Shown piece after piece: positions 1 to 39,179 of a stretch of DNA of 64,000 nucleotides (positions within the stretch are counted from its first letter, which is position 1; the number at the start of each line of letters is the position of its first letter). Both the position numbers and the translations under genes were made by a program. The stretch comes from Acidimicrobiales bacterium (lineage in GTDB: Bacteria > Actinomycetota > Acidimicrobiia > Acidimicrobiales > Aldehydirespiratoraceae): contig OZ244029.1 of assembly GCA_965214945.1 (NCBI GenBank), positions 872,533 to 936,532 on the forward strand, written 5' to 3'. A model generated the notes under the pieces. That model ran no database searches, was not told where the DNA came from, and worked only from the letters and a program-made list of their open reading frames with translations.

Positions 1-1290
1 AAGGATCATGAAGGTGCCGTAGCATCGCTCGGAGGCTTTCTAGAAGCACCATCTCTTCTCGCCAAGCTTGCACACTCTCACGTGGATGCCGCCGTTGATT
101 TCCTGCGTCCAATGCACGACAGTGGACAGATCCCACAACGCTACGTTGGATTCGTCCGCGAGCTCCTTGAGGCTGAGCAGTGTATTTGCGGCGAAGATCT
201 CTCCCAACCAAGTGTACATCGCAGGCATGTCGAGGAAAGGCTTGCTGCTTCCGAAGCAAATGCCAAGCACGCGAACCATCTAGGATATGTGTTCGATGCA
301 GCTCGGGATCTCATGCACCTTGCCAATAACTCAGACTGGGCCGTCGAGTCAGTGGACGCAGAGAAACGACTGGCAGAAGTCGAGGAGCGATTGATGGAGC
401 TCAAAACAGACCGGGCGGATATCGACAAGAAATTGCGCACCATCGAAGATTCTGAGATTGGGCTGATCCAGGAGGAGATCGACGCCCTCGATGTACAGGT
501 GGAGAGATTCATCGCTGATAACTCTGAGTACTCGAACCGGCTTCCAGATCTCCAGCGCGAAGCGGACGCCCTGAACAAGCAGATCCACGCCCGACAGAAC
601 AGCGAGATAGCCGCTGCTAGCCACCGTCGTTCCGAAGACTTAGCGGGTGTAATCCATCGGATTCTGACAAGTGCCTACAAGACCATTCAGAAAGACCAAG
701 TCGCGGAGCTCTCCAATGAGATGAATCGGCTGTTCGCAACGATGGTCGACAACGTAACCGAATACGATACTAACACCGACCAGGCCGGTAAGGAAACAAT
801 CCGAACTATTGTGCAAGTGGGTGTGCGCTCAGCCTCAGGCGGCGGCTTCGAGATCTTTGCCATCAACAACCACGGACGCGACAAGCCGCACATAGAGATC
901 AATGGGGCCAGCCGCCGAGTGATCGCTCTAGCCTTCGTGCTCGCGCTCTGCAATGAGTCAAAAACCCGTGCGCCGCTGATAGCTGACTCACTGCTCAATA
1001 TGATGTCCGGCGCTGTCCGCCGAAACACTCTCGTGGCGACGGCTGAGAAGTCAGGGCAACCGATCCTCCTGTTGACTGGAGCGGATCTTGAGGCTGAGAG
1101 CGAGGCGGAAACCATCGCGAGTAGGTGCGGAGCGACCTACACCCTGACCGCTCAGTGGCACAAAGAGGTAGTGAACCTAACCGACGCTCGGGCAATCTCC
1201 CTTATTTGCGAATGCGGACCTCGTCAGTACTGCGATGTGTGCGAGCGGATTGGTCAAGCAAACCGCCGGGGCTGGTCAAGGAGGAGGTAG
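1..1290 (+). CDS. SMC/ABC-type coiled-coil ATPase, DndD-like; 5-prime end lies outside the window
   Basis: Frame 1 is open from nt 1, with no stop before the first listed Met at 82. Long coiled-coil stretch (EKRLAEVEERLMELKTDRADIDKKLRTIEDSEIGLIQEEIDALDVQ), a CxCG motif (EQCICGEDL), an ABC-signature/Walker-B-like C-terminus (INGASRRVIALAFVLAL, APLIADSLLNMMS, QPILLLT) and a terminal Cys cluster (CECGPRQYCDVC). Family assigned by motif recall only. Confidence 0.5.
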   Translation, partial: KDHEGAVASLGGFLEAPSLLAKLAHSHVDAAVDFLRPMHDSGQIPQRYVGFVRELLEAEQCICGEDLSQPSVHRRHVEERLAASEANAKHANHLGYVFDAARDLMHLANNSDWAVESVDAEKRLAEVEERLMELKTDRADIDKKLRTIEDSEIGLIQEEIDALDVQVERFIADNSEYSNRLPDLQREADALNKQIHARQNSEIAAASHRRSEDLAGVIHRILTSAYKTIQKDQVAELSNEMNRLFATMVDNVTEYDTNTDQAGKETIRTIVQVGVRSASGGGFEIFAINNHGRDKPHIEINGASRRVIALAFVLALCNESKTRAPLIADSLLNMMSGAVRRNTLVATAEKSGQPILLLTGADLEAESEAETIASRCGATYTLTAQWHKEVVNLTDARAISLICECGPRQYCDVCERIGQANRRGWSRRR

Positions 1291-3099: not shown

Positions 3100-3341
3100 C
3101 AGTTGCCCGACCCGCCGGTCCAGCTGCCCGCTGGCCTGGCCGACCTGCGCCGCCGTCTTCACCGCCGGCAAACGACAGGACACGGGGGCCTGACCAACCC
3201 CGACACATCCGAATCGATCCCCGAGGGGGACGTGACATCCAACGGGCGGAGCATGGCTGCTCATGGGGAATACCGGTGCGTTCCCGTCCTTCGGACGATC
3301 GTTCCTACACTCATTCTCGTGCTGACCCTGCGCATAGAGCG

Positions 3342-6300
3342 ATGAGCGTTGTCGAGGTGCGGGCACCAATGCCCGAGCTGCCTGATCCTGGGCAGGTGGT
3401 TGAGGTCCGGGGCTCGACTTGGGCTGTCGCCGACGTTCGTCCGCAGGGGCTGCCGCGTAGTCCGGCCGATGAGGCCACTGCGCAGCTCTCGCACGTGGTC
3501 GATCTCCAGTCGCTCGATGAGGACCGCTTCAATGAGATGTTGAGCGTCGTGTGGGAGCTGGAAGTTGGCCATACCGTCACTCCGGCTCAGGGTCTTCCGG
3601 AGCGAATATCGCCGGAGGCCTTCGATGATCCGGACACGCTTGCGGGGTTCATCGACGCGATGCGGTGGGGCGCCGTCACTTCTGCGGACCCGAACCGCTA
3701 CCAGGCGCCCTTCTGGTCGGGCGTGAACATCGAGGCGTATCAGATGGAACCGCTCCGTCGTGCGCTCAGTGCGCCGCGGACGAACCTGCTCTTGGCCGAC
3801 GACGTGGGCCTTGGCAAGACGATCGAAGCCGGACTCGTCATCCAGGAGCTATTGCTTCGCCACCGAGCCCGAACCGCAATAGTCGTGTGCCCTCCGAGTC
3901 TTCGGCTGAAGTGGCAAGACGAGATGCGGGAGAAGTTCGGCCTCGAGTTCGTCATCGTCGACAGCAGCCTGATGGCGCAGGTGCGCCGAACGCACGGTCT
4001 GCACGCCAACCCGTTCCTGATGTACCCCAGGGTCATCGTGTCTATGGCGTGGCTGCCGAAGATTCGAGCTCAGCGGCTCCTACGCGACCTGTTCTCACAG
4101 GCGGGCAATCCGAAGACGGGCAAGCGATTCGCGTTCGACATTCTCGTCGTGGACGAAGCCCACCACGTGGCACCTTCGAGTCCTTCAGCGGGCGCAGGTG
4201 GTCGTGGGTACGCAGTCGACACGCAGCGAACAGTTGCGGTCCGTCACCTCGCCGACAGATGCGAACACCGGCTGTTCCTGTCAGCCACTCCGCACAACGG
4301 CCATCCAGAATCGTTCACGGCCCTCATGGAGATGATAGATCCTCGGCGATTCTCACGGGGTGCACTGCTGGACAGCAACGCGCTGAAGGACGTGGCAGTC
4401 CGCCGGCTCAAGCGGGAACTCACCGGCAAGGGATTCAGGAGGCGATCTGTCGAGTCGCTCACGTTCACTCCCGCCGACGATGAGCAGGAGAAATTCACCA
4501 TTCTCGACGCGATCGTTTCGAAGAGCGCGAAGCTGAACGGGAGCAAGCCTGGTGGTGACATCGTGACGATGCTCCTCAAGAAGCGGTTCCTGTCCAGCCC
4601 CTTTGCCTTCGGCCAGACCCTCAGCCACTACCTCAGTTCCCGATTAGGCCGCGGCCTGAGCTACGACGACTACGACGACATCTTCGGTGAAGGCCAAGCC
4701 GACGAGGAGGAAGGGCTTTGGGAACAAGACGAGTCCGAGCGTCTTCACGAATCGAAGACGTCCGATCCTCTTAGCGCCGCCGAGCCCGGGCAGCTCGACT
4801 CGCTGATGGAGTGGGGCTTGAGCTACGAAAGCCGCCCGGACTCACGGCTCGAGGCTCTGCGCTCGTTCTTGAACGAGGTCTGCCGTCCCGATGGTCAGCA
4901 CTGGTCGCAAGAGCGGGTCGTGGTGTTCACCGAATACGCGCACACGGTCGACTGGCTGACGAGAGTGCTAATTCAGCAGGGATACGGTGACGTCATCGCC
5001 GTCATCCAGGGCTCGACCCCGCCGGAGGACCGCGAGTACATCCGCGCACAATTCACGGCGGACCCTTCGAAGGAGCCGGTGAGGGTGCTCCTGGCGACCG
5101 ACGCAGCTGGCGAAGGGATCGATCTGCAGGCTCATTGCCACCGGCTGGTCAACTTCGACATCCCGTTCAATCCCTCCCGGCTAGAGCAGAGGATCGGTCG
5201 CATCGACCGGTACGGGCAGACTCGTGATCCGCAGGTGTTCCATTTCGTGCCCACTTCGGATTCCTCCCTCTACGCAGCAGCCGCTGATTTCATGGCCCGA
5301 ATCGCAAGGAAGGTCGCCAACGTCGAAGCTGACCTTGGCTCGGTCAATCCGGTGATCGGCGGGGAGATCCACGAGCACTTCGCAGGGCGGACCCCGTCGA
5401 TACGCAAGGCGAGAGCCGTTGACGCCAATGAGGTGATCAACGCTGCGCTTGCAGGTGGCATCGAACTCAACGCACGACTGACCCAACTCGAACAGGGCTT
5501 TGACGAGTCGCGGACCGAAATGCATCTCGAACCCGGCAATCTGCGGCGCGTTGTCGACACTGCCTTGCGGATCGATCGCCAACCCCCGCTCATCTCCATC
5601 CCATACGATGAAGGCGATCCACAGGGTGTACGTGCCGACGAGTTTGCCGTGCGTCTCCTTCCTGACCGGGGTGAACAACCAGGGCCGCTAGCGTTTGCCG
5701 CGTACGAGGTCCCACAGGTATCTCGCCCCTGGCATGCCACCTTGAAGGGCCTGTACACGCGGCTCGCGCCGAACATAGCGCGTCCGATCACCTTCGACCA
5801 GGCTGTAGCAGAAGGTCGAGACGATCTGGTCTACGTCCACCTCGGCCACCCGCTGGTCCAGAAGGCGCAGAGGCTGCTGCGTAGCGCCCTGTGGAGCACA
5901 TCCTCGCCTCTGAACCGCGTGACAGCAGTCGTCGTAGACGATCTGCCGGAATCATTCGTCGCGGCAGTGACCCGAATGGTTCTCGTCGGTCGTGGTGGAG
6001 TCCGCCTGCATGAGGAGGTCTTCCTCGCAGGTGTACGTCTCCGAGGACGTCGAGCCATGGCCGAGGAGAAAGCCGAGGCCGCCCTCGACCAAGCGCTGGA
6101 CGCATCGCGCCTGACGTTCGCGGAGGACTCCGTGCGCTCACAGCTCTGCGTGCTTTGGAACACGCCCGACGCGCCCCTGCGAATCCGCCTTGAGGAATCG
6201 ATGCGAGCACGAGCCGCACGCCGACACGAGACAGTGATGGAGCAGCTCGCGCGTCGTAAAGCGGCCGATGCCCAACGGGCTCACGAGATCTATGCGGCAT

Positions 6301-6563
6301 TTCGAGCCAATCTGCGAGAGTCGCTCGACGCGCTCCGTAAAGCCGAGGAAGAGGAGGCGGCCAAGCTCTTCACCGATGACCAGCAGCACCAGCGACGGCG
6401 CGACATCGATGCGATGGGGCGACGGCTTGAGGAAATAGACGACGAAGAGGCCCGTGAGATCGAGGCGATCAGTGAGCGATACGCAGAGGTTAAGCCCCAT
6501 ACCACCGCTGCCGCAGTTGTCTTCGCGCTCACTCGTGCCGACGCTGCCGGATGGGGGAACTAA
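3342..6563 (+). CDS. drmD: SNF2-family helicase, DISARM class 1 DrmD
   Basis: SF2/SNF2 motifs: LLLADDVGLGKTIEAG (I), DILVVDEAHHVAP (II), LFLSATPHNGHPESF (III), VLLATDAAGEGIDLQ (V), FNPSRLEQRIGRIDRYGQT (VI). Start placed at ATG 3342 (MSVVEVRAP); the ORF track opens at 3276. First gene of the coupled five-gene operon. Confidence 0.8.
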   Translation: MSVVEVRAPMPELPDPGQVVEVRGSTWAVADVRPQGLPRSPADEATAQLSHVVDLQSLDEDRFNEMLSVVWELEVGHTVTPAQGLPERISPEAFDDPDTLAGFIDAMRWGAVTSADPNRYQAPFWSGVNIEAYQMEPLRRALSAPRTNLLLADDVGLGKTIEAGLVIQELLLRHRARTAIVVCPPSLRLKWQDEMREKFGLEFVIVDSSLMAQVRRTHGLHANPFLMYPRVIVSMAWLPKIRAQRLLRDLFSQAGNPKTGKRFAFDILVVDEAHHVAPSSPSAGAGGRGYAVDTQRTVAVRHLADRCEHRLFLSATPHNGHPESFTALMEMIDPRRFSRGALLDSNALKDVAVRRLKRELTGKGFRRRSVESLTFTPADDEQEKFTILDAIVSKSAKLNGSKPGGDIVTMLLKKRFLSSPFAFGQTLSHYLSSRLGRGLSYDDYDDIFGEGQADEEEGLWEQDESERLHESKTSDPLSAAEPGQLDSLMEWGLSYESRPDSRLEALRSFLNEVCRPDGQHWSQERVVVFTEYAHTVDWLTRVLIQQGYGDVIAVIQGSTPPEDREYIRAQFTADPSKEPVRVLLATDAAGEGIDLQAHCHRLVNFDIPFNPSRLEQRIGRIDRYGQTRDPQVFHFVPTSDSSLYAAAADFMARIARKVANVEADLGSVNPVIGGEIHEHFAGRTPSIRKARAVDANEVINAALAGGIELNARLTQLEQGFDESRTEMHLEPGNLRRVVDTALRIDRQPPLISIPYDEGDPQGVRADEFAVRLLPDRGEQPGPLAFAAYEVPQVSRPWHATLKGLYTRLAPNIARPITFDQAVAEGRDDLVYVHLGHPLVQKAQRLLRSALWSTSSPLNRVTAVVVDDLPESFVAAVTRMVLVGRGGVRLHEEVFLAGVRLRGRRAMAEEKAEAALDQALDASRLTFAEDSVRSQLCVLWNTPDAPLRIRLEESMRARAARRHETVMEQLARRKAADAQRAHEIYAAFRANLRESLDALRKAEEEEAAKLFTDDQQHQRRRDIDAMGRRLEEIDDEEAREIEAISERYAEVKPHTTAAAVVFALTRADAAGWGN

Positions 6564-9500
6564 TGGCTGCTGCTAACCGCCGACGCATCCCTGCCACCAG
6601 CAACGTGTCGGAACTTCATCGACGGTGGCTGGAGCTGGTCGACATCGAAGGTCCTTTTCTGGCCATCCCGCCACTCAAGAGAGTTTGGCCCAACGGGATC
6701 CCCAACTTTCGGTCCACCCACCCAGACCGGTTTGAAGTACTCAACCACGCCCTCAAAGACTTCGAAGCGGCTTGGGAGTCCCTGGACCGAGCTGAGGACA
6801 GCAGTAGCACGCTTGACGCGTACCGAGTGGCACGCGACAAGTGGGTCGAGACCGTATTGCGTGACGTGGTTGGTTGGGCCGAGTCCCTCGAATGGGGGGC
6901 CATTCCGGGCGTCGAGGCGCAGTCGCCGAACCGGGCAGTGACCGTGACTGCGCAAGGAGCCATTGTTGGTGCCGACGGCACGAGAGCGTTGGTACACGTC
7001 ACCGATGCGACGGAGTCGCTCCGCCAAACTCCGAACGATCTGTGGGCTGCGACACCAATAGATCGCCTCGATGCGCTTCTGCGAGAGAACGATGTCGAGA
7101 TCGGCATCGTCACTGACGGTCGATGGTGGGGACTCGTGTACGCCGGTGAGGGCCGCATGACGGCCTCCGGAGTGGTCGACGCGCTGACCTGGGTCGAGGA
7201 ACCCCGCACTCGCGATGCGTTCTTCACCCTCGCCGGGCGCCAGCACATCATCGGCGGAGATCCGACTGAGAGACTCCCGGTGCTGTTTGCCGAGTCCGTC
7301 GCCGCTGCCGAGGAGATTACCGAGGCGCTTGGTTCCCAGGTCCGCCGCGCGGTCGAGTTGCTCATCCAGTCGTTCTCCGAATCGGCCTCAGAAGCTCGTC
7401 GACTCGGCAAACCAGATCCGTTACCAGATCGAACCCACGACACCTACGAGGCTGCGGTCACCGTGATGATGCGCGTGGTTTTCCTCCTCTTCGCTGAGGA
7501 GCGAGGTCTACTTCCCTCAGGCGAGCTGTTCGAACAGGGTTACGGCATCTCCAGAGAGCTAGACCGGCTCGACGCCGAGAGCACGCCCGGCGAGGAAGTG
7601 CTCGAAGCAACATCCCTGACCTGGCACCGGTTGCTAGCCACCAGCGGCGCGCTGTACAAGGGTGCGTCCCTTGAGAACCTGCGCATGCCCGCCTATGGAG
7701 GATCACTCTTTGACCCTGACCGGTTTGCCTTCCTCACCGCAATCACGGACGAAGGCACACTCGCCGTGGTGGTGTCAGATCGGGTGATGCTCCACGTCCT
7801 CCGGTCCGTCCAAGTGGCGACCGTGAGAGGCGAAGCTCGCCGTATCTCCTTTCGCGACATCGATGTCGAGCAGATCGGCTACATCTACGAAGGCCTCCTC
7901 GGATACACTTGCAAATCGGTTGATGAGACATATCTGGGCATTCTCGGAACGATGGGCGAGGAGCCTGAAATCCCGCTCGGGACCATCGAGCAGCTCGCTA
8001 GGGAGAACACGACGCCAGAGAAGCTGGCCGGTGCGATCCGCAAGTGGGTTAAGGAGAATCAGCCTTCAGCAAAGCCTGCAACCGCTGCCAAGATCGCCAA
8101 AGCCCTCCAGGCCGATGCCGACCCGTCAGTGGTCAGTGCGCTAGCCCAGACCGTTGCCGACAACTCAGAGCTTCTCAATCGCATCGCGCCCTGGCTAGGC
8201 CTGATCCGTCGCGATCTGCGAGGCCACCCCTTCGTCTTACGGGGGGGGGGGGGTCTCCTGGTCGCAGAGACCCCGTCACGGAGGAATGCAGGGGCGCATT
8301 ACACCCCGAAGTCGCTGGCTGAAGAGGTCGTTTTCCACACGCTCGAGCCTCTCTGCTACTCGCCTGGTCCGCACCAGACGAGCGACGAAGCGTCATGGCA
8401 GCTCCGGAGTTCTGACGAGCTGCTCAATCTCAAGGTCGCCGACATCGCTTGTGGCTCTGGCGCCTTCCTTGTGGCCGCAACTCGCTACTTGGCAGATCGA
8501 GTTGTCGAAGCCTGGATCAGTGAGGAACCGGCCAACGCTCAGCGGATGGATCTCCATACGCGGGCCAAGCGTCAGGTCGTCGCGAATTGCCTCTATGGAG
8601 CTGACATCAACGACATGGCCGTCGAGATGTGCAAGCTCTCCCTCTGGCTCGTCTCCCTCGATCGCGATCTGCCCTTCTCCTTCGTCGACGACAAAATCTT
8701 CCTAGGCAACTCGCTCTTGGGGCTCACCAGCCTCGATCAGCTTCGGAAGCTTCACATTGATCCGACGCGAGTCCCTATGGACCGCAGGTTCGACATCTTT
8801 GACGTCGATGTCGATGAGATCATTCACAAAGCTGTCAGTCTTCGAGAGCATCTATTGGGCGAGATTGACGACAACGACCCGGCGCGGAGCAGCGCGACTA
8901 AGCGCCGCCAGCATAATGAGTCGAAGAGTGTTACCTCCCCACTCCGCCAGATAGCGGATGGCATCATTGCTGCGGGTCTCCCTCTAGGCGGCAAGCCCGG
9001 TAGGGAACTTGACGCAGCCTATGTAAGCCTCCGGTGCGCCGTTAGGAATGCCTATCCTGATGATGACACTCACAAGGATGCAAGAGAGTTGGAGGCTCTG
9101 ATTGTGAGAGGTCTTACTCCGGCTGTCAAGACCGACTTCAAGCGATGGCAACCGCTCCATTGGCCAATCGAGGCCCCCGACGTGATCGTTGATCGCAGTG
9201 GCTTCGATGCAATTATCGGCAATCCTCCATTCCTGGGGGGCCAGAAACTCAGCGGGGCAATGGGCAGTGAGATCAGGGACTGGTTCGTTCACGTGCTGGC
9301 GAATGGAAAACGAGGTAGCGCCGACTTAGTTGCCTACTTCTTCCTTCGGATACTTGGTCTTCTCGCAGACAATGGCACCATTGGGCTAATCGCGACCAAC
9401 ACCATTGCTCAGGGGGTCACGAGGCAAGTTGGCCTTGACCAGATTGTGGATCAGGGATTGACCATCATGCGTTCGATCCAGAGCAGGCCATGGCCGGCAA

Positions 9501-10636
9501 CAAGCGCGAGCCTGGAGTTCGCCGCGGTCTGGGGTACCCAAAGCTCTGTTCTTTCAAGTGGGCTCCGCGTCAGTGACGGCGTACCGGTTGCCAAGATCTC
9601 GACATTCCTTGAGCCTGCAGGTCGGATTGAACAGGGGCCCGAGAAGCTTGTTCAGAACAAGAATGTTGTGTTCCAAGGATGCATCGTTTTGGGCAGCGGA
9701 TTTATTGTCGATCCGGAGGAGGCTATGGGATGGATCCAGAACGATCCATCCAACAAGGAAGTTCTCTTTCCTTACCTCAGCGGCGATGATCTTAATTCCC
9801 GGCCCAACTGCTCTGCATCTCGCTGGGTCATAGACTTTGCTGAAAGGACGGAGGAAGCGGCGCGCAAGTATGAAGGGCCGTTCAATAGAGTGGCTGAGAC
9901 CGTCCTGCCTGAGCGCAAAGGCAAGAACGATTCTGGAGCTCGGAAGTATTGGTGGCGCTTTCTTCGGCCACGACCAGCCCTCCGCTCGGCGATCGACGGA
10001 CTCAATGAAGTCATCGTCATTGCAGGTGTCAGCAAGACGGTCATGCCCGGAAGAGTGAATACTGGGACGGTCTTCCCCCACCACCTTGTAGTGTTCGCAT
10101 CTGAGTCATATTCGTTGCAGGCCTGCTTGTCGTCAAGCATCCACCAGATGTGGGCAATCATGTATGGGTCGACGATGGGATCCGGTCCGAGATACACCCC
10201 GGAACGCTGCTTCAAGCCCTTTCCATTGCCACCCGAGTCGGAAGCGTTGGCATCTATGGGAAGGATTCTTCATGGGGAGCGACGTGAGATCATGTTGCGC
10301 CGCCAATTGGGACTCACCGGTCTCTATAACTTGGTCAACAGTCCTGAGATCGGTGCCGAAGCTGACCCCGATGTTGCCCGAATGCGCCAGATCCACATCG
10401 AGCTTGATGAGGTTGTGATGGATGCCTACGGGTGGCCAGATGTCGCACTCGATCATGGCCATCACACGTATCGGCAGATGGAGCGGTGGACTGTCAGTCC
10501 GACTGCCCGGGTCGAGATACTCGACCGTCTCCTGGAGGAGAATCACCGTCGGGCTTCTAAGGAGTCGCCGAAGCCCAGAGCGATGAGCCACCACTCCAAG
10601 AAGGGTCGGAATGTAACAGAAGAGCTTTTCTCATGA
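6551..10636 (+). CDS. drmMI: Large Eco57I-like N6-adenine DNA methyltransferase, DISARM DrmMI
   Basis: GAHYTPKSLAEEVV, VADIACGSGAFLVAA (AdoMet motif I), YGADINDMAVEMCKLSLWL, FDAIIGNPPFLGGQK (catalytic NPPF). The start at 6551 (alternative ATG 6563) overlaps the drmD stop at 6561-6563. 1361 aa. Confidence 0.8.
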   Translation: MGELMAAANRRRIPATSNVSELHRRWLELVDIEGPFLAIPPLKRVWPNGIPNFRSTHPDRFEVLNHALKDFEAAWESLDRAEDSSSTLDAYRVARDKWVETVLRDVVGWAESLEWGAIPGVEAQSPNRAVTVTAQGAIVGADGTRALVHVTDATESLRQTPNDLWAATPIDRLDALLRENDVEIGIVTDGRWWGLVYAGEGRMTASGVVDALTWVEEPRTRDAFFTLAGRQHIIGGDPTERLPVLFAESVAAAEEITEALGSQVRRAVELLIQSFSESASEARRLGKPDPLPDRTHDTYEAAVTVMMRVVFLLFAEERGLLPSGELFEQGYGISRELDRLDAESTPGEEVLEATSLTWHRLLATSGALYKGASLENLRMPAYGGSLFDPDRFAFLTAITDEGTLAVVVSDRVMLHVLRSVQVATVRGEARRISFRDIDVEQIGYIYEGLLGYTCKSVDETYLGILGTMGEEPEIPLGTIEQLARENTTPEKLAGAIRKWVKENQPSAKPATAAKIAKALQADADPSVVSALAQTVADNSELLNRIAPWLGLIRRDLRGHPFVLRGGGGLLVAETPSRRNAGAHYTPKSLAEEVVFHTLEPLCYSPGPHQTSDEASWQLRSSDELLNLKVADIACGSGAFLVAATRYLADRVVEAWISEEPANAQRMDLHTRAKRQVVANCLYGADINDMAVEMCKLSLWLVSLDRDLPFSFVDDKIFLGNSLLGLTSLDQLRKLHIDPTRVPMDRRFDIFDVDVDEIIHKAVSLREHLLGEIDDNDPARSSATKRRQHNESKSVTSPLRQIADGIIAAGLPLGGKPGRELDAAYVSLRCAVRNAYPDDDTHKDARELEALIVRGLTPAVKTDFKRWQPLHWPIEAPDVIVDRSGFDAIIGNPPFLGGQKLSGAMGSEIRDWFVHVLANGKRGSADLVAYFFLRILGLLADNGTIGLIATNTIAQGVTRQVGLDQIVDQGLTIMRSIQSRPWPATSASLEFAAVWGTQSSVLSSGLRVSDGVPVAKISTFLEPAGRIEQGPEKLVQNKNVVFQGCIVLGSGFIVDPEEAMGWIQNDPSNKEVLFPYLSGDDLNSRPNCSASRWVIDFAERTEEAARKYEGPFNRVAETVLPERKGKNDSGARKYWWRFLRPRPALRSAIDGLNEVIVIAGVSKTVMPGRVNTGTVFPHHLVVFASESYSLQACLSSSIHQMWAIMYGSTMGSGPRYTPERCFKPFPLPPESEALASMGRILHGERREIMLRRQLGLTGLYNLVNSPEIGAEADPDVARMRQIHIELDEVVMDAYGWPDVALDHGHHTYRQMERWTVSPTARVEILDRLLEENHRRASKESPKPRAMSHHSKKGRNVTEELFS
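8241..8253 (+). repeat. G13 homopolymer tract inside drmMI (currently in frame, encodes GGGG)
   Basis: Counted directly: ttcgtcttac + 13 g + tctcctg. Translation across it is FVLRGGGGLLVAETPSRRNAGAHYTP. Confidence 0.9.
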
Positions 10637-13600
10637 CTGATGCGTCTGCTTCGGTGGGTTCTCAGACCAGTTACGACTTGCGATTCGAGTTAGACGGTTC
10701 GTCCTTCGCTGTGCGAGAGAATCTTGTCGACATCCTGGAACGCGAGCTGCTAGGGCCGATTCACGGATCAGAGGAGGTGCTTCCTATCAGCCCTCGGTCC
10801 CAATACCTGGTTGGTCACGTTGCTCCGGTGAAGCTCACCTCCGACGCAGCCAGTGAGGCGGTTGATTCTGGCTCAGAGGATCGCGGCGAGCTGATCGAGG
10901 TTCGTCTGGACACAACCGCGTTGGCCGAAGTTCCCGGTGTGCCAGCGTTTGCAGCTGATGACCAGAAAGCCGAGACCGAGGACGATGATGCCGAGGACCG
11001 CGCACCGAAGCAAGGCCTCATGATCCCGGCGTCGATGGGAATGCGCTTCCAGGTTCCCGCCGATTTGGAGTCGTTCACGGTATCGGCCTCATGGGGAACG
11101 TACGAGACCATTGAGACGGATCAGGTGACCAAGTCGGGACGTCCTGTTCGCCATTACAAGCGGATCCCGGTGGAGGAAGCGAGGTTAATTAGGTTGGCGG
11201 ATCTGGTTGCTGGCAGAACGAAGATCGTGGAGCTTCAGGATTCTGTTTGCCTTCGCCTTGACCGTTATGACGACAAGATACACGATCGGGTGCTAGTCGA
11301 GATCGCCCTGTGCAACGATCGCGAGACCCCGGACTCCATCCCGATAAGCATGTGGATGTTTCAGACCAAGCTCCGGGTAGACGCTGGCGGGGCGGAAGTG
11401 TTTTTGCCGGTGCGTGACGTGCTCGAACAGGACTGGCCAGAGCCCGACGACGAGGTGCAACAGCTCGACCTCCAATATCGAGACCGTCTGGAGTATGCGG
11501 TTGGGCGCACCTGCTCCGTGGACTGGGAGGTGCGCCAAGGATCGCGGCGGGCGACCGAAGTGTCGACGACCTGGCTCCCGATAGCTGAGACACCGCAGAC
11601 GCGGGCTCCGGACCGTGACAGGTCCATGTTGTCGATGGACGAGCTCGCCACCGTCACGCCGGCCAAGTTGCGCACCGGCCTAAGACCGCTGGTGGACGGC
11701 TATTGTGAATGGCTCGATCAACAGGAATCGAGAGCTAAGAAGCTGCCCGAGCACTGGCACGAGACCTGTGAGCAGGTCCTTTTGGAAGCTCGTCAGGCTC
11801 ACCAACGTCTTGCCGACGGGTTGGAGCACGTTGCGACCGAGCCCGAAGCGCTGCGTTGCTTCCGATTCATGAACCGGGTGATGCGTGACCAACGGATCGC
11901 TTCGCAAGTTGCCGAAGAGCGAGCGTCGGACTCATCGGTCACGATCGAGCAGGCCAGGCAAAGGGTGGACGCGCTGAGTGCCGGCGTGGCTTCGTGGCGC
12001 CCTTTCCAGTTGGCCTTCATTCTCATGCAACTCGAAGCGCTCACCGAGCCCACGACCGCCATCCGCAGCGCAGAGCATCAGGCCCGAGTCGAGTTGCTGT
12101 TCTTTCCGACGGGAGGCGGCAAAACCGAGGCCTACCTGGGTCTCGCTGCCTATGCCTTCGCGACCCGCCGCCGGCAGGGAGTTGTCGAGTCGGCCGAGGG
12201 ACCGCTGGACGGAGGCCTTGGTGTTGCGGTGCTGATGCGCTACACGCTGCGGCTGCTGACTGCGCAGCAGTTTCAGCGGGCAACGGCGCTTGTGTGCGCA
12301 GCAGAGCTAGCTCGCCGCGAGGACGAAGCGACCTGGGGCACAGAGCCATTCCGCATCGGTCTGTGGGTCGGGACCGATGTGAGCCCTAAGTGGTTCGAGG
12401 AAGCAGACAAGCAGCTCACCAGGGCCAACGAGTACGGCTCGCATCGCTTGACTGTCCTGCAGATTCAGCGCTGCCCGTGGTGCGGAACCCCGATCGCGGC
12501 AGCCCAGATCAAGGCCGACGCCACGCAGCGGCGGGTGTTCGTGTACTGCGGAGACGAGCTCGCCCGATGCCCGTTCGCCAAGGGCGGGGCCGTCGACGAG
12601 GGCCTGCCGGTGCTCACTGTCGACGAGGAGATATACCGTCTCGCTCCCGCGTTCGTCATCGCGACGGTGGACAAGTTCGCCCGCTTGGCCCGCGAGGGTG
12701 CAGCAGCGTCCCTGTTCGGCTATGTCGCCCGCCGCTGCGGTCGCCACGGCTACGTCCATCAGGACTATGCTGGGTGCAGCATCAGCAGAGCGCACCCGGC
12801 GGTCAAGGACGGTGATCGCATCGTCCATCCGCAGGCCACTGTGCGGCCTGTGGGGCGACTGCGGCCGCCGGACCTCATCATCCAGGACGAGCTGCACCTC
12901 ATCACCGGTGCGCTCGGCACGTCAGTCGGCCTGTTCGAGGTCGCGGTCGAGACTCTCGCCTCGTGGGAGACCGCCGACGGCAAGCCTGTGCGACCGATGA
13001 TCGTCGCCTCGACGGCAACGGTGCGCAATGCCCACGAGCAGGTGCGAGGCCTCTATGGGCGCCAAGTCCAGATCTTCCCGCCCCAGGTGCTCGATGCTGC
13101 CGACACCTACTTCTCCCAAGAGGTGCCGATCGACCGCGCCAACCCTGGGCGCCGCTATCTGGGCGTCAGCGCTCAAGGAGTCCGCCTTTCGAGCGCCGAG
13201 ATCCGCGTGGCCGAGGTCTTGCTCTCCGCGGGGCAACTGCTCTTCGACGAAGCCGGCGAGGCAGCCGACCCGTACATGACGCTGGTCGGGTACTTCAACG
13301 CAACCCGGGAGCTGGCGGGCATGGCCCGCTACATGGCTGATGACGTCGCCAACCGAGTCGGCAACCCGCGTATGGGCTCCGGCTTTCCCCGCAGGTACGG
13401 CACCGGCTTTGGAAGTTTGTCCATCGCGGAGCTCACCTCACGCATCGCTTCCGCCGAGATCGGCCGCACCCTCGACCGACTCGGGCTCGAGTTCGATCCC
13501 GACTTCGACGCTACCCAGCAACGCCTGGACCGCATCAAAGCCGCAAACGCCGGCAAGAAGCGGCCCATCCGCACGAACATCCCCTTCGACGTGGTGCTGG

Positions 13601-14367
13601 CAACCTCGATGCTCGGGGTCGGCGTCGACGTCCAGCGGCTCGGCCTCATGCTGGTGGTCGGCCAGCCGAAGAACACCGCCGAGTACATCCAGGCGTCCTC
13701 CCGCGTGGGACGCGAAGCATCCGGTCGCCCCGGCCTTGTGGTGGCGCTGGGCAACTGGGCGCGGCCGCGAGACCTTGCGCACTTCGAGCAGTTCCGGCAC
13801 TACCACGAGACGTTCTACGCCCAGGTCGAGGCTCAGTCGGTCACACCGTTCTCGACGACCTCGCTCGATCGGGGCCTTGATGGCCTGCTCGTGAGCGTCG
13901 CTCGCGTGGTGCAAGCGACCGAGGCCAAGGGTCTGTCGCCCGAGCAGGACGCCTGGCGGATCCGCGACCAGCGGGCCTCAATCGACGCCATCTGCGATCG
14001 GCTCAGGAAGCGGATCGCCGTGGCGGCCCGAGACGACGCCGCCTCCAACCATGCCGGCGATGTGCTCGTCAACCGCATCGATCGATGGAACGAGCGCGCC
14101 AAGCGAGCAACGGAGATGAACAAGACTCTGGTGTACGAACGGATCGGGCAGGGAGAGGAGTTCCTCCCTCTGATCATCAGCCCCGAGAACGCCAAGGCCA
14201 GCGCCGGCGATTCCCTCCAAGCCCCGTTCGTGATCGCGAACTCCATGCGCGAAGTGCAGCCTGAGATCAATGTGCTCGTCAGCCCCCTAGCGGAGCGGCT
14301 GTTCATGCTGAGGCCTGATGGCGCGCCCGAGTGGACCCTCCCGGTTGGAGAGGACGACGATGACTGA
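10633..14367 (+). CDS. drmA: DExH helicase, DISARM DrmA
   Basis: LLFFPTGGGKTEAYLGL (Walker A), DLIIQDELHLITGALGT (DExH), ATSMLGVGVDVQRLGLMLVVGQPKNTAEYIQASSRVGR (motifs V-VI), and a Zn-ribbon-like CPWCGTPI...YCGDELARCPF. ATGA overlap with the drmMI stop. Confidence 0.8.
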   Translation: MTDASASVGSQTSYDLRFELDGSSFAVRENLVDILERELLGPIHGSEEVLPISPRSQYLVGHVAPVKLTSDAASEAVDSGSEDRGELIEVRLDTTALAEVPGVPAFAADDQKAETEDDDAEDRAPKQGLMIPASMGMRFQVPADLESFTVSASWGTYETIETDQVTKSGRPVRHYKRIPVEEARLIRLADLVAGRTKIVELQDSVCLRLDRYDDKIHDRVLVEIALCNDRETPDSIPISMWMFQTKLRVDAGGAEVFLPVRDVLEQDWPEPDDEVQQLDLQYRDRLEYAVGRTCSVDWEVRQGSRRATEVSTTWLPIAETPQTRAPDRDRSMLSMDELATVTPAKLRTGLRPLVDGYCEWLDQQESRAKKLPEHWHETCEQVLLEARQAHQRLADGLEHVATEPEALRCFRFMNRVMRDQRIASQVAEERASDSSVTIEQARQRVDALSAGVASWRPFQLAFILMQLEALTEPTTAIRSAEHQARVELLFFPTGGGKTEAYLGLAAYAFATRRRQGVVESAEGPLDGGLGVAVLMRYTLRLLTAQQFQRATALVCAAELARREDEATWGTEPFRIGLWVGTDVSPKWFEEADKQLTRANEYGSHRLTVLQIQRCPWCGTPIAAAQIKADATQRRVFVYCGDELARCPFAKGGAVDEGLPVLTVDEEIYRLAPAFVIATVDKFARLAREGAAASLFGYVARRCGRHGYVHQDYAGCSISRAHPAVKDGDRIVHPQATVRPVGRLRPPDLIIQDELHLITGALGTSVGLFEVAVETLASWETADGKPVRPMIVASTATVRNAHEQVRGLYGRQVQIFPPQVLDAADTYFSQEVPIDRANPGRRYLGVSAQGVRLSSAEIRVAEVLLSAGQLLFDEAGEAADPYMTLVGYFNATRELAGMARYMADDVANRVGNPRMGSGFPRRYGTGFGSLSIAELTSRIASAEIGRTLDRLGLEFDPDFDATQQRLDRIKAANAGKKRPIRTNIPFDVVLATSMLGVGVDVQRLGLMLVVGQPKNTAEYIQASSRVGREASGRPGLVVALGNWARPRDLAHFEQFRHYHETFYAQVEAQSVTPFSTTSLDRGLDGLLVSVARVVQATEAKGLSPEQDAWRIRDQRASIDAICDRLRKRIAVAARDDAASNHAGDVLVNRIDRWNERAKRATEMNKTLVYERIGQGEEFLPLIISPENAKASAGDSLQAPFVIANSMREVQPEINVLVSPLAERLFMLRPDGAPEWTLPVGEDDDD

Positions 14368-16429
14368 CCCGCTCACCGGTCCAGAAGCTCCGAGCATGAT
14401 GCTGCATGATCCAGGTCAGACGCTCGACCCGCTGGCGGACGCCGAAGACGCGGCAGTCAAGAATCGGGCCAAGGTCGGTTCAGCTCGGCCTTCCTCGCTC
14501 CTCTACACCTACGGGCCGGGCGCCATCATGGATCTTCCGGGCTTCTCGGTCATGCCCGCCGGGCTTGGCGACTGGGAGCCCATCTGGCAGCGACGAGAGT
14601 CGGTCCCCACGATCACCGAGCCCCGTCTGCTCGACGTGGTGCGACTCCACCTGGGACCGCAGGTAGACGCTCTGCGCCCTTTCCCGTGGCAGCCGAAGAC
14701 GAGCCCCTCGTCTTCTGACGGCAGTGATCTCGGGATACCAGCCCGTGTCTTTCCCCAGTGGCTGCGGTGCACCGGCTGTGACTACCTCGGCCCGATTTCA
14801 CGCTTTCGCTACACCAACACCCACCCATTCCGTCCCGACCTGGCCCAGTTCACCCACGCCCCCTGCCCCGGCCGCGGCGGACAACGCCGCACCTCGAGCC
14901 GGAAGGAGCGCGGGAGGCCGGCGGTTCCGGCCCAACACCTGCTGACCTGCGTCAACGGCCATCTCGACGAGTTCCCCTACGACCTCTGGGTCCACCAAGG
15001 CGACAGATGCCCGAAAGTCGAAGTGCCGAGCCTGAAGATGCGCGACGCCAATGTCGGCGGCTCCAATGTCGGCTCCACCATCATCTGCGAAGCCTGCAGA
15101 GCGAGGCGGGGAATGGCGGAGGCACAAGGACGGGCAGGCCGCGAGAAGCTCCCGCAGAAGTGCCGCGGGCGCCACCCTCACCTGAACGCCTTCGACGGCT
15201 CCTGCGATGCGCAGCCGGCGCTGATCATGATGGGTGCGTCGAACCTCTGGTTCCCTTCGATCCAGTCGATCATCGTTATGCCCCGGACTGAGGCCGAAGG
15301 GCAGTCCGCCCTCGCTGACAGCTTGCGGCTCCAACTGGACGTTGAGCAGATTCGCCGATCTGGCCAGGATCTTGACTGCATCGTGGCGCTTGCCAGGGCT
15401 ATGCGGGGCCTTGACACGGCTGACATCACCGACCAGGAGCTCAAGGAGGCGATTTCGGAAGTACTGGCACCGGCAGACACCGAGGAGGATCGACAGGAGA
15501 AGCTGGCGGCCTGGGATCCCATCGAACTGCTCGTGCCGGAGTGGGACTACCTGCAGAAGCCGGCCCTGTTCCCGCAGCAGGAGAACACCAGCGGCCTGAT
15601 GGTCACCGAGGAGCAGCGCCACGCAGACCTCGACACCCGCATCACACGGGTGGTCGCCGTCAACCAGATGAAGAAGGTCAACGCCGTCCTCGGTTTCACG
15701 AGGCTCGACGAGATGGACCGGGTCAATGATCTGGCGAGCCGCCTGGTCAAGCTGACCCGCGACGCCCGACCGACCTGGGTACCGGCGACCGAAGACCGCG
15801 GCGAGGGTGTCTTCCTGCAGCTCGACCCCGAGAAGGTCGCTGCCTGGGAGGAGAAGATTCTCGTCTCGGACTTGTGGGACGCCCATCGCAAGGCACACCG
15901 GCGCAATTTTCAGCGGCGATTCTCCGAGACCGCGAAGCTCGTCGACCCCGACGTGCGCCTGGCCGCGCCGCGGTATTGGCTGCTGCACACCCTCGCTCAC
16001 GTGCTGATCCGCGAGATGGCCATGTCGTGCGGCTACGGCGCTGCGAGCCTCACCGAGCGCATCTATGGTTGGGCTTCATCGCCGCAGCGAGACGCGGCGG
16101 CAGGCCTCCTGATCTGCACGACCGCTTCGGACAGCGAAGGGACCCTTGGCGGTCTGGTCGCCCTGTCTGAGCCTTCTAGGCTGCAGGGGCTCATCAGATC
16201 GGCACTGCGGCGAGCCGGCAGATGCTCGTCTGATCCGGTCTGTGCCATGCGCACTCCGAGCGACCCCGAGGACTTTCTGCACGGAGCGGCTTGTCACTGC
16301 TGTGCGTTCGCATCGGAGACCTCGTGCGAGAGGGCCAACCGGTTCCTCGACCGCCGCCTGCTGCTGACCCTCCCATCCGCCGATGGCGCCACCGTGCCGG
16401 GCTTCTTCGGGACGGTCGATGCCATCTGA
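14360..16429 (+). CDS. drmB: DUF1998-domain protein, DISARM DrmB
   Basis: C-terminal DUF1998-type motif HGAACHCCAFASETSCERANRFLDRRLL, plus Cys clusters CTGCDY and CPGRGG...CVNGH. The ATG at 14360 overlaps the drmA stop (14365-14367); the ORF track opens at 14318. Confidence 0.75.
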   Translation: MTDPLTGPEAPSMMLHDPGQTLDPLADAEDAAVKNRAKVGSARPSSLLYTYGPGAIMDLPGFSVMPAGLGDWEPIWQRRESVPTITEPRLLDVVRLHLGPQVDALRPFPWQPKTSPSSSDGSDLGIPARVFPQWLRCTGCDYLGPISRFRYTNTHPFRPDLAQFTHAPCPGRGGQRRTSSRKERGRPAVPAQHLLTCVNGHLDEFPYDLWVHQGDRCPKVEVPSLKMRDANVGGSNVGSTIICEACRARRGMAEAQGRAGREKLPQKCRGRHPHLNAFDGSCDAQPALIMMGASNLWFPSIQSIIVMPRTEAEGQSALADSLRLQLDVEQIRRSGQDLDCIVALARAMRGLDTADITDQELKEAISEVLAPADTEEDRQEKLAAWDPIELLVPEWDYLQKPALFPQQENTSGLMVTEEQRHADLDTRITRVVAVNQMKKVNAVLGFTRLDEMDRVNDLASRLVKLTRDARPTWVPATEDRGEGVFLQLDPEKVAAWEEKILVSDLWDAHRKAHRRNFQRRFSETAKLVDPDVRLAAPRYWLLHTLAHVLIREMAMSCGYGAASLTERIYGWASSPQRDAAAGLLICTTASDSEGTLGGLVALSEPSRLQGLIRSALRRAGRCSSDPVCAMRTPSDPEDFLHGAACHCCAFASETSCERANRFLDRRLLLTLPSADGATVPGFFGTVDAI

Positions 16430-17122
16430 TCCGTTCGCTGATCTGGGGACCTTCCTCACCGCAACCGAGGCAGTCGGGATCGCAGTCCAGCTCTCCACCG
16501 GTCAGCACTCATCAGTCGCTCTCCGGGAGGTGAATCCAGCCCGTCGCGAGAAAGCCAAGGAACTGATGAGCACCGCCGGACTCGGACACGATGACGTCGA
16601 CCGATCCTCAGCCGTCCTTCATGCGATCGCGAGAGCCAAGAGTCTCGGGAGTCAGTTGACACCGGTGTGGATGATGCCCGGGAACGAGGCAACAGCCGGC
16701 CGTCTCACCGGTGAGTTCACCGGCTCATCCAAGCAGCTAGCCAGTCGGTGACGTGCGCGACTTATAACTTCGAGCCCACGTCGCAGATGTGGACAGCGCT
16801 TCGGGAAGCGGCCGATCAGCCTGGGATCGTCGTCGCCGTCTACCTCGACGCCGACAAAGCGGACGCTGGGAAAGTCAAGAGCCAGCTTGGCCGCGCATCC
16901 GTATACCAATCCGCCGTCTTGCCTGATGGCAACCAGGTAGTCAGCCACGCCAAGTTCGTCGTCATCGACCATGAGATCGTCCTCGTCACGAGCGCGAACT
17001 TCTCATTCAGCGCCGAGAACCGCAACGTCGAGTTCGGCTTGCTCGTCCAAGATGCCGGACTTGCTCGTTCAGTTGAAATGACGATGGAGTCGAAGCAGGG
17101 CACCCTCTACGAATCAGCGTAG
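16419..17122 (+). pseudogene. drmC: PLD-family nuclease DrmC, split by one frame change
   Basis: HxK(x)4D motif in SHAKFVVIDHEIVLVTSANFS. The N-terminal half reads in the frame of ATG 16419 and stops at 16749-16751. The C-terminal half reads in another frame that is open from 16715 (VHRLIQAASQSVTCATYNFEPTS). The switch lies between 16715 and 16748, near the short repeat tcaccgg-tgagt-tcaccgg. The start overlaps the drmB stop by 11 nt. Confidence 0.7.
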
Positions 17123-22860: not shown

Positions 22861-22974
22861 GGCAAGCGCCCTCCTGTTTTTTGTGCTGTCGTGTGAGCGT
22901 CGGTCGCCGCGCAGGCAACGGGTGGTCGCCGCGCGAAGGCGTCGTTACGACCCTAGCTGTTCTCAGCAGAGGTA

Positions 22975-22988
22975 TGCAAACGATTGCA
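22975..22988. promoter_or_regulatory. LacI/GalR-type operator palindrome TGCAAACGATTGCA
   Basis: Near-perfect 14-bp palindrome in the divergent SDR / ABC-ATPase intergenic region. One of four related sites. Confidence 0.6.
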
Positions 22989-23040
22989 GGGTCTGGTCTG
23001 TTGACGTGTTGAAGATGCCTTACGGTAGAACCCAGTAACC

Positions 23041-23054
23041 TGCAATCGATTGCA
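23041..23054. promoter_or_regulatory. LacI/GalR-type operator palindrome TGCAATCGATTGCA
   Basis: Perfect 14-bp palindrome, 82 nt upstream of the ABC ATPase start. Confidence 0.65.
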
Positions 23055-23135
23055 GCACCGGTGTTGATCGCTCGGTCGTCCATGCGTGACCGTGGTCAGC
23101 GCTTACCGGCCTCGGCGCAACGGGAAGGAGCCGGA

Positions 23136-26826: not shown

Positions 26827-26834
26827 TGGGCGCC

Positions 26835-39166: not shown

Positions 39167-39179
39167 GGATAGGACTCGT

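What the first reader, a model, noticed from the sequence alone, without database searches (positions are those of the whole stretch)
8241..8253. G13 tract inside the DISARM methyltransferase: possible phase-variable self-protection
A run of 13 G lies in the drmMI coding sequence (FVLR-GGGG-LLVAE), about 30 codons upstream of the GAHYTP block and about 70 codons upstream of AdoMet motif I. Runs of this length are prone to slipped-strand length changes, and a +1 or -1 change would truncate the methylase before its catalytic domains. Phase-variable methylases are established for type I/III R-M systems. I am not aware of this being described for DISARM, where loss of the modification arm while the helicase/nuclease arm stays on could be toxic or could reset specificity. 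The tract is in frame as assembled.
Basis: partly seen in the sequence, partly recalled or inferred. Interest (0 to 1): 0.7.

Follow-up and report, generated by a model that had tools for sequence, protein, structure and literature searches.

The report
Slippery G13 run in DISARM methylase
A run of 13 G bases, found in no related gene, sits in frame inside the DNA-methylase gene of a DISARM anti-phage system in an uncultured Acidimicrobiales bacterium, and it most likely acts as a random on/off switch of a kind already known from related defence systems, though no read data were available to show it switching.

Summary
G13 lies at 8241-8253 in drmMI of a class 1 DISARM operon (drmD-drmMI-drmA-drmB-drmC). 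It reads CGG GGG GGG GGG GGT (R-GGGG) and is in frame.

It is not chance. Nine-G words number 30 against 0.7 expected. In 1.74 Mb of orthologous loci there is no G/C run of 11 or more.

It is lineage-specific. All 119 protein homologues and 81 orthologous loci have one residue fewer here and G runs of only 2-6. A metagenome scan found no drmMI with 10 or more G at this site.

A +/-1 change truncates the protein at 590 or 717 aa, before motif I and NPPF.

The same window holds five more long tracts (G19, C14, C13, C10, C9) in paralogous membrane glycosyltransferase-like genes. Three of them sit at one homologous site with different lengths, and two are out of frame.

Ten core genes show no frameshifts, so the assembly has few indel errors.

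Phase variation is therefore well supported circumstantially but not shown, because no reads or strain variants were available. The toxicity idea is contradicted by published class 1 DISARM data.

Close precedents exist: the pglX G8 tract in Streptomyces, the Cj0031 G9 tract, and inversions in DrmMI. I class it as a new member of a known kind, of moderate interest.

The parts
8241..8253 (+). G13 homopolymer. It covers positions 2-3 of the R564 codon, G565-G567 (GGG x3), and positions 1-2 of the G568 codon (GGT).
   Evidence: sequence; run-length census; shuffle expectation.
6551..10636 (+). drmMI, the DISARM class 1 N6-adenine methyltransferase. The ORF is 1361 aa; the likely start is ATG 6563 (1357 aa, P0001).
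8291..8308 (+). GAHYTP block (G581-P586), 13 codons after the tract.
   Evidence: invariant G581, H583, Y584, T585, P586.
8441..8467 (+). AdoMet motif I, DIACGSGAF (D631-F639). It is lost in every out-of-frame variant.
   Evidence: invariant columns; aligned to the CamA methyltransferase.
9221..9232 (+). Catalytic motif IV, NPPF (N891-F894).
8320..8322 (+). TGA stop reached when the tract is G11, G14 or G17 (product about 590 aa).
   Evidence: with the sequence.
8703..8705 (+). Stop reached when the tract is G9, G12 or G15 (product about 717 aa).
   Evidence: this frame is the one of ORF 8286-8705.
3276..6563 (+). drmD (SNF2 helicase). Its TAA stop overlaps the drmMI ATG (TAATG at 6561-6565).
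10633..14367 (+). drmA (helicase). Its ATG overlaps the drmMI TGA (ATGA at 10633-10636), so the two are translationally coupled.
14318..16429 (+). drmB (DUF1998/MZB).
16383..17122 (+). drmC (PLD nuclease), split by a -1 frameshift at about 16716-16719 (GAG TTC|ACC, where relatives have TTC CAC). It appears as two ORFs, 16383-16751 and 16748-17122.

Best explanation
The G13 run is a real, recently expanded, hypermutable homopolymer. It makes drmMI a stochastic on/off (contingency) gene.

Proposed mechanism:
- Slipped-strand mispairing during replication adds or removes a G.
- Lengths of 10, 13 or 16 keep the frame. They only add or remove a glycine in a beta-hairpin turn just before the methyltransferase domain. 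The assembled state is ON.
- Any other length stops translation at 8320 or 8703. The product is then only the N-terminal 590-717 aa, without motif I, NPPF or the target-recognition domain, so the DISARM m6A mark is lost.
- drmMI is translationally coupled to drmA (ATGA overlap) and lies 1.9-2.3 kb upstream of it. OFF variants therefore probably also express less drmA and drmB.
- The result would be a mixed population of methylating, defending cells and non-methylating cells.

What is shown: the tract, its frame, the truncation outcomes, its uniqueness, its non-random codons and the gene junctions.

What is inferred: actual switching, its rate, the polarity on drmA/drmB, and any benefit.
For: 1. 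The tract is far longer than the composition allows and is built from non-preferred codons (GGG 18% of glycine codons; the adjacent TTA is 1.4% of leucine codons).

2. It is derived. All 119 homologues and 81 orthologous loci read FVV(L/R)-x-GG-L, with one residue fewer and G runs of 2-6. A G10 tract would give the ancestral protein length, so G13 looks like a net +3 expansion that kept the frame.

3. The frame outcomes were computed.

4. The AlphaFold model places R564-G567 in the turn between two strands, with local pLDDT 80-86.

5. Everything downstream of the tract is intact. The window protein keeps all family-invariant residues, including motifs I and IV.

6. Other tracts in the same window behave like contingency loci. 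C14, C10 and C9 occupy one homologous position in three paralogues of a PMT/GT-C-like membrane protein. The C9 copy is in frame. The C14 copy and a C13 in a fourth copy are out of frame by one base.

7. The assembly is not error-ridden. Ten syntenic core genes (about 11 kb) align full-length in a single frame to a relative at 85-93% amino-acid identity.

8. Precedent in the same phylum. A G8 tract in the methylase pglX switches the Streptomyces Pgl system at 1e-2 to 1e-4 (PMC4365076). The actinobacterial NucS repair pathway does not correct indels (PMC7015689).

9. An OFF state should be viable. There was no autoimmunity without the methylases in class 1 DISARM, and a relative (L019) carries drmMI interrupted by a 2.7-kb insertion carrying an IS1595-like transposase gene next to intact drmD, drmA, drmB and drmC.

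10. An Actinomyces MAG (L056) has drmD frameshifted exactly at a G10 run.
Against: - There is no direct evidence of length variation. No reads were available. The 90% clusters of DrmMI and DrmA contain only this genome. The metagenome pattern scan returned 67 loci, none of them drmMI. The last protein search failed to return even the self hit, so it says nothing.
- This is a single genome, and the sequencing technology is unknown. The exact length of a 13-base homopolymer is the hardest thing for long-read assemblies to get right.
- drmC carries a frameshift outside any long run, so the operon may already be decaying.
- The tract is not conserved in any relative, so long-term selection for a switch cannot be argued.
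- Polarity on drmA and drmB is inferred only from the gene junctions.
Confidence: 0.55

Rival explanations
1. The tract is real and slippery but is not a selected switch. It would be a transient mutational accident in an accessory, partly decayed defence island, caught while still in frame and heading for pseudogenisation.
For: - drmC is already frameshifted.
- The whole DISARM region is absent from the syntenic position in an 89%-identical relative, so it is accessory.
- Relatives show other ways of losing DISARM genes: an insertion carrying an IS1595-like transposase gene in drmMI of L019, and frameshifts in drmD of L056 and L067.
- No orthologue shares the tract.
- An in-frame state has a one-in-three prior by luck alone.
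Against: - Building G13 from the ancestral GTC CTC GAx GGC GGC needs several substitutions plus a net +3, and the frame was kept.
- The 790 residues downstream keep every family-invariant position.
- drmC is dispensable for DISARM defence in both classes, so its frameshift need not mean decay.
- Five other long tracts in the window sit in exactly the classes of genes that carry contingency repeats elsewhere.
Confidence: 0.25
2. The tract, or its exact length, is a sequencing or assembly artefact. The true sequence would be shorter, interrupted, or of a different length, so 'in frame as assembled' would mean little.
For: - The source is a single 3.15-Mb contig, which implies long reads. Long homopolymers are the main residual error class of long-read consensus (my own knowledge).
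- Two glycosyltransferase-like genes are out of frame exactly at long C tracts.
- drmC has a 1-base deletion in a CC dinucleotide.
Against: - Ten core genes over about 11 kb show no frameshift against a relative.
- DrmD, DrmMI, DrmA, DrmB, DruE and DruF are all full length against their profiles.
- Both flanks of the tract are in the same frame and align perfectly with orthologues. A spurious insertion would not be expected to do that.
- Six tracts confined to two kinds of gene is not the pattern of random poly-G artefacts, which occur at read or contig ends (my own knowledge).
- Paralogues carry C9, C10 and C14 at one homologous site, which points to real tracts.
Confidence: 0.15
3. Selection acts on the protein. 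An extra glycine in the hairpin turn would be favoured, and the G run would be an incidental way of encoding RGGGG.
For: - The GG at this turn is nearly invariant in the family.
- The model puts the residues in a turn, where glycine is favoured.
Against: - None of the 119 homologues, 80 genome loci or L081 has the extra residue.
- Codon usage predicts GGC. GGG three times in a row after CGG has a probability of about 1e-3 given the peptide, and the other GGG tripeptides in the window use mixed codons.
Confidence: 0.04

Closest known systems
G-tract phase variation of pglX in the Pgl (BREX type 2) system of Streptomyces coelicolor (Sumby and Smith 2003, as described in PMC4365076)
   Same: - Same phylum (Actinomycetota).
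- A poly-G run lies inside the coding sequence of the large N6-adenine methyltransferase of a multi-gene anti-phage system.
- A +/-1 G change switches the system off and on at high frequency (1e-2 to 1e-4, with only 8 G).
   Different: - A different defence system. Here the partners are DrmD, DrmA, DrmB and DrmC, not PglW, PglY and PglZ.
- The tract is longer (13 against 8).
- In Pgl the methylase is toxic without PglZ. For class 1 DISARM, methylase loss was reported harmless.
- Switching has been demonstrated for Pgl but not here.
Cj0031/Cj0032 type IIG restriction-modification enzyme of Campylobacter jejuni, with a polyG switch (PMC4889913)
   Same: - A homologous enzyme class. DrmMI matches a PADLOC type IIG model at 670 bits over its full length.
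- A mid-gene G9 splits the ORF in two when its length changes.
- The tract is present in only some alleles, as it is here.
   Different: - Cj0031 is a stand-alone fused restriction and methylation enzyme in a low-GC pathogen with a well-studied set of 12-29 tracts.
- Here the methylase has no detected nuclease domain, serves a helicase-based system, and sits in a 62% GC uncultured environmental actinobacterium.
Programmed inversions in class 1 DISARM DrmMI and DrmMI-like genes (PMC9881135)
   Same: The same gene family (DrmMI) is the target of a programmed heterogeneity mechanism.
   Different: Those are recombinase-driven inversions that swap coding segments and so change specificity. Here it is a homopolymer that can only turn the gene on or off. 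No invertible repeats or alternative target-recognition cassettes were seen.
Phase-variable type III mod and type I hsd genes (phasevarions) of Haemophilus, Neisseria and Helicobacter
   Same: A repeat tract within a methyltransferase ORF causes on/off switching of a methylation mark (review PMC12707154).
   Different: In those systems global gene-regulation effects have been shown, and restriction depends on Mod, so the OFF state is safe by design. Neither point is known for DISARM.

Membership tests
Class 1 DISARM | An SNF2-family helicase gene, drmD, directly upstream of the methylase gene. | tested here: met
   ORF 3276-6563 matches PADLOC DrmD (PDLC02621) at 1267 bits, and Pfam SNF2-rel_dom plus Helicase_C.
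Class 1 DISARM | An N6-adenine methyltransferase, DrmMI, with AdoMet motif I and NPPF. | tested here: met
   PDLC02643 at 1612 bits over residues 18-1350; Pfam Eco57I, MmeI_Mtase and N6_Mtase; motifs at residues 631-639 and 891-894.
Class 1 DISARM | The core pair drmA (helicase) and drmB (DUF1998/MZB) downstream. | tested here: met
   DrmA PDLC02575 at 997 bits; DrmB PDLC02583 at 231 bits plus Pfam MZB. The gene order is the same as in L081 and L019.
Class 1 DISARM | An intact PLD-family nuclease gene, drmC. | tested here: not met
   drmC is present but split by a -1 frameshift between residues 100 and 101 of the L019 orthologue. drmC is reported to be dispensable for defence.
Class 1 DISARM | Demonstrated anti-phage activity and host motif methylation. 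| not testable with these tools
   This needs an experiment or methylation-aware reads.
Repeat-driven phase-variable (contingency) locus | A homopolymer above the length at which slippage becomes frequent (about 7-9 G/C or more). | tested here: met
   G13. The demonstrated switches have G8 and G9.
Repeat-driven phase-variable (contingency) locus | The tract is placed so that a one-unit change abolishes or restores the product. | tested here: met
   Simulated lengths 9-17 give in-frame products only at 10, 13 and 16, and 590- or 717-aa products otherwise.
Repeat-driven phase-variable (contingency) locus | The tract is non-random: over-represented against composition and codon usage, and absent from orthologues. 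| tested here: met
Repeat-driven phase-variable (contingency) locus | Observed length polymorphism within a population or among close strains. | tested here: inconclusive
   No other sequence of this drmMI exists in the collections. The metagenome scan was negative and the fragment search was uninformative. The only indirect support is C14, C10 and C9 at one homologous site in paralogues.
Repeat-driven phase-variable (contingency) locus | A reversible, heritable ON/OFF phenotype. | not testable with these tools
   This needs cultures or time-series reads.
Pgl / BREX type 2 | Partner genes pglZ, brxC/pglY and pglW next to the methylase. | tested here: not met
   The neighbours match Drm profiles, not Pgl/Brx profiles. 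Only weak BrxH hits appear, on the SNF2 helicase.
Type IIG restriction-modification enzyme (Cj0031/MmeI-like) | A nuclease domain fused N-terminal to the methyltransferase and target-recognition domain, in a stand-alone gene. | tested here: not met
   No nuclease family was detected in residues 1-560. The gene is embedded in a DISARM operon. The DrmMI profile scores 1612 bits against 670 for the type IIG profile.

The most novel reading that the evidence does not exclude
This would be the first repeat-driven phase-variable DISARM system. A poly-G switch in drmMI would, through translational coupling, toggle the whole methylase/helicase module. It would be one element of a multi-locus set of switches (with at least four poly-G/C-bearing surface glycosyltransferase paralogues) in a free-living, uncultured Acidimicrobiales. 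That would mean pathogen-style contingency loci, linking phage receptors and phage defence, operate in environmental Actinomycetota that lack indel-correcting mismatch repair.
Probability: 0.4. Interest if true: 0.6.

Novelty: new member of a known kind. Interest (0 to 1): 0.45.

Why it matters
If the tract switches, DISARM joins type I, type III, type IIG and Pgl/BREX as a defence system whose self-marking arm is run as a bet-hedging switch. This would be a natural experiment on a point that is still debated: whether DISARM needs its methylase for self-protection or for defence.

The organism would give a tractable read-out. Tract length and the m6A motif could be measured on the same long reads.

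The co-occurrence with variable surface glycosyltransferase paralogues hints at coordinated variation of phage receptor and phage defence in an environmental, uncultured lineage, where contingency loci have hardly been studied.

If the tract does not switch, the case is only a curiosity of one assembly.

Tried and rejected
1. Looking for strain or population variants of the tract.
- Exact look-ups of the window proteins found no other contig.
- The 90% clusters of DrmMI and DrmA have a single member.
- The metagenome scan for 10 or more G upstream of the ETPSR-coding block gave 67 loci, none homologous to drmMI by tblastn or blastn.
- A protein search with the 132-aa stretch ending at the tract returned only two unrelated short proteins and not even the self hit, so it is uninformative.
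- A same-species contig exists (L149, 97.5% identity), but it covers only the MMPL gene.

2. Chance or codon usage as an explanation. Rejected.

3. A conserved poly-glycine feature of the family. Rejected, because orthologues have xGG.

4. A general assembly indel problem. Not supported, because there are no frameshifts in ten core genes. Homopolymer-specific error cannot be excluded.

5. Other repeat types in the window. None of note. There were no Rfam hits.

6. A solved structure covering the tract. None exists. The nearest are CamA and MmeI, and their alignments start after the tract. The AlphaFold model is poor overall (pLDDT 59) and was used only locally.

7. Sumby and Smith 2003 and Ofir et al. 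2018 are not held in the library. They are cited only through papers that describe them.

8. The organism's name and sequencing platform could not be recovered. The placement in Acidimicrobiales rests on the best named homologues.
Full report
**1. Observation**

The sequence at 8241-8253 is thirteen G, bounded by C and T. It lies in a 1361-codon ORF, 6551-10636. The likely start is the ATG at 6563, which overlaps the TAA of the upstream gene (TAATG) and gives the 1357-aa protein held in the public collection (P0001).

GAHYTP begins 13 codons after the last tract glycine, not 30. Motif I (DIACGSGAF, residues 631-639) is 63 codons downstream, and NPPF is at 891-894.

**2. Gene and operon**

Profile searches identify a complete class 1 DISARM gene order:
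- DrmD, 3276-6563
- DrmMI, 6551-10636 (1612 bits to a DrmMI profile; Pfam Eco57I, MmeI_Mtase and N6_Mtase)
- DrmA, 10633-14367
- DrmB, 14318-16429
- DrmC, split into two ORFs

The drmC split is a one-base deletion outside any long run. The window has GAG TTC ACC where relatives have GAG TTC CAC. drmMI and drmA overlap by ATGA.

The organism is an uncultured Acidimicrobiales. The best named relatives of a core ABC ATPase are Acidimicrobiales and Acidimicrobiia MAGs at up to 89% identity, and the source contig is 3.15 Mb.

A relative with conserved synteny of the core block 22-33.7 kb has no DISARM next to it. The operon therefore sits in an accessory island. The window also carries a PbeC/DndD-like gene, Druantia DruF/DruE, a type II restriction-modification pair and an NsnB-like ATPase.

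**3. Is it more than chance?**

Yes.
- G/C run lengths in the window decline geometrically to 6, and then six runs of 9, 10, 13, 13, 14 and 19 appear, with none of 7-8.
- Nine-G words number 30, against a mean of 0.71 in dinucleotide-preserving shuffles.
- The 80 orthologous DISARM loci fetched from genomes (1.74 Mb, similar GC) contain four runs of 9-10 and none longer.
- GGG makes up 18% of glycine codons in the window's genes and TTA makes up 1.4% of leucine codons. The three other Gly-Gly-Gly tripeptides use mixed codons.

**4. Orthologues**

All 119 listed protein homologues (64-75% identical) read FVV(L/R/V)-x-GG-L at this place, one residue fewer than the window. At the DNA level, the 80 genome loci and the closest relative (L081, 75%) have G runs of 2-6 there, typically GGC GGC. 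A scan of 241 million metagenome records for 10 or more G followed within 10-24 bases by the ETPSR-coding block returned 67 loci, none of them drmMI.

The tract is thus a derived, lineage-specific feature. A G10 would give the ancestral protein length, so G13 looks like a net +3 expansion that preserved the frame.

**5. Consequences of length change**

I simulated tract lengths from 9 to 17:
- G10, G13 and G16 give full-length proteins with three, four or five glycines.
- G11, G14 and G17 stop at 8320-8322 (about 590 aa).
- G9, G12 and G15 stop at 8703-8705 (about 717 aa).

All truncated forms lack motif I, NPPF and the target-recognition region. Native-frame restart codons lie downstream of GAHYTP, so a restart could not rescue activity.

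An AlphaFold model of residues 401-1050 is poor overall (pLDDT 59) but confident around the tract (80-86). It places R564-G567 in the turn between two beta strands, just before the part that aligns to solved gamma-class methyltransferases. In-frame variants are therefore likely to be tolerated. This is an inference.

**6. Other tracts in the window**

The other five long tracts are all in a 6.5-kb cluster of paralogous, weakly PMT/GT-C-like membrane-protein genes.
- C14 (58359), C10 (59407) and C9 (63609, minus-strand gene) occupy the same homologous position in three copies.
- The C9 copy reads through in one frame.
- The C14 copy needs C13 or C16.
- A C13 (60203) at another position in a fourth copy needs C12 or C15.
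- G19 (57410) lies at the 5' end of the first copy, between two copies of the N-terminal coding segment.

Different lengths at one homologous site in paralogues, together with a mix of in-frame and out-of-frame states, is the classic picture of contingency loci. It shows that such tracts change length in this lineage. Surface glycosylation and restriction-type methylases are the two gene classes that typically carry such tracts in Campylobacter.

**7. Assembly quality**

Ten syntenic core genes (window 22060-33658) align full-length in a single frame to a relative at 85-93% amino-acid identity. The large defence proteins are full length against their profiles. Indel errors are therefore rare outside long homopolymers.

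This makes the drmC frameshift more likely to be real, and it makes the existence of the tracts credible. It cannot certify that the length is exactly 13.

**8. What is known**

- In Streptomyces coelicolor, the Pgl system switches off at 1e-2 to 1e-3 and back on at 1e-3 to 1e-4 through a G8 tract in the methylase gene pglX (PMC4365076).
- Cj0031, a type IIG enzyme homologous to DrmMI, is switched by a mid-gene G9 that is absent from other alleles (PMC4889913).
- DrmMI itself is a target of programmed inversions (PMC9881135).
- The actinobacterial NucS pathway does not repair indels (PMC7015689), so slippage products should persist.
- Library searches found no report of a repeat-driven switch in DISARM.

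**9. Hints from other DISARM loci**

- An Actinomyces MAG (L056) has drmD frameshifted exactly at a G10.
- Bifidobacterium leontopitheci (L067) has an in-frame C9 in the target-recognition region of drmMI.
- Propioniciclava flava (L076) has a C8 in the target-recognition region of drmMI.
- The Acidimicrobiales relative L019 has drmMI interrupted by a 2.7-kb insertion carrying an IS1595-like transposase gene and a methylase-HNH gene, while drmD, drmA, drmB and drmC remain intact.

Loss of single DISARM genes, including the methylase, is evidently tolerated in nature.

**10. Verdict**

The most likely reading (about 0.55) is a real hypermutable tract that makes drmMI an on/off gene, ON as assembled, with probable polar effects on drmA and drmB.

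The rivals are:
- a real but unselected, transient tract in a decaying island (0.25);
- a homopolymer-length or assembly artefact (0.15);
- protein-level selection for an extra glycine (0.04).

The toxicity and specificity-reset suggestions are not supported.

Because the mechanism and even the enzyme class have close precedents, this is a new member of a known kind. It is moderately interesting, chiefly as the first DISARM example and as a sign of contingency loci in an environmental actinobacterium. Read-level tract lengths would settle it.

Noticed in passing
window 57294-63983 (tracts at 57410-57428, 58359-58372, 59407-59416, 60203-60215, 63609-63617): A cluster of four paralogous PMT/GT-C-like membrane-protein genes or fragments carries G19, C14, C10, C13 and C9 tracts. 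C14, C10 and C9 sit at one homologous position. The C9 copy is in frame, and the C14 and C13 copies are out of frame by one base. It looks like a family of phase-variable surface glycosyltransferases.
   Followed up: partly
window 57344-57470: The N-terminal coding segment (..SRRLTAV(V/I)V..) is duplicated on either side of the G19 tract. The upstream copy ends in a stop just before the tract, and a TTG immediately precedes the G run.
   Followed up: no
window 16700-16751: drmC has a -1 frameshift in a CC dinucleotide (GAG TTC ACC, against TTC CAC in relatives), not in a long run. It splits the PLD nuclease gene into ORFs 16383-16751 and 16748-17122.
   Followed up: yes
window 36074-53120: A second defence island holds Druantia-like DruF (36074-39166) and DruE (39180-44546), a type II methyltransferase (45604-47040) with its restriction enzyme (47080-47910), two ORFs with no family match (49319-51306), and an NsnB/AAA_15-like ATPase (51303-53120).
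   Followed up: partly
window 82-1290: This ORF matches only the C-terminal half of PbeC/DndD-type SMC-like ATPases (profile positions about 295-643). It may be a remnant or a short form of a Dnd/Pbe-type system at the edge of the window.
   Followed up: no
window 18477-21850: Two overlapping ORFs (349 and 775 aa) directly downstream of DISARM have no Pfam or PADLOC match. They are possible unknown island cargo.
   Followed up: no
window 22057-33664: This is a core housekeeping block: SDR, ABC ATPase, transketolase-like, E1 dehydrogenase, M24 peptidase, a sugar ABC transporter and LacI. It is syntenic with Acidimicrobiales MAG GCA_046290435.1 (L150) and flanked on both sides by accessory defence islands. 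One SDR gene present in L150 is missing between 32762 and 32795.
   Followed up: partly
L019 13390-16056: In the related Acidimicrobiales MAG, drmMI is interrupted at about residue 1125 by a 2.7-kb insertion. The insertion carries an IS1595-like transposase fragment and an N6_N4 methylase-HNH gene that is itself split into two ORFs. drmD, drmA, drmB and drmC are intact.
   Followed up: partly
L056 7588-7597: In an Actinomyces sp. MAG, the drmD gene of a class 1 DISARM operon changes frame exactly at a G10 run. This is a second homopolymer-associated disruption of a DISARM gene.
   Followed up: partly
L067 13107 and about 8940; L076 13188: Bifidobacterium leontopitheci drmMI has an in-frame C9 in its target-recognition region, and its drmD changes frame near residue 745. 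Propioniciclava flava drmMI has a C8 at a nearby position.
   Followed up: no
window 8237-8239: The leucine codon just before the tract is TTA, which makes up 1.4% of leucine codons in this window. The few codons around the tract look compositionally atypical compared with orthologues (GTC CTC GAx GGC GGC).
   Followed up: partly
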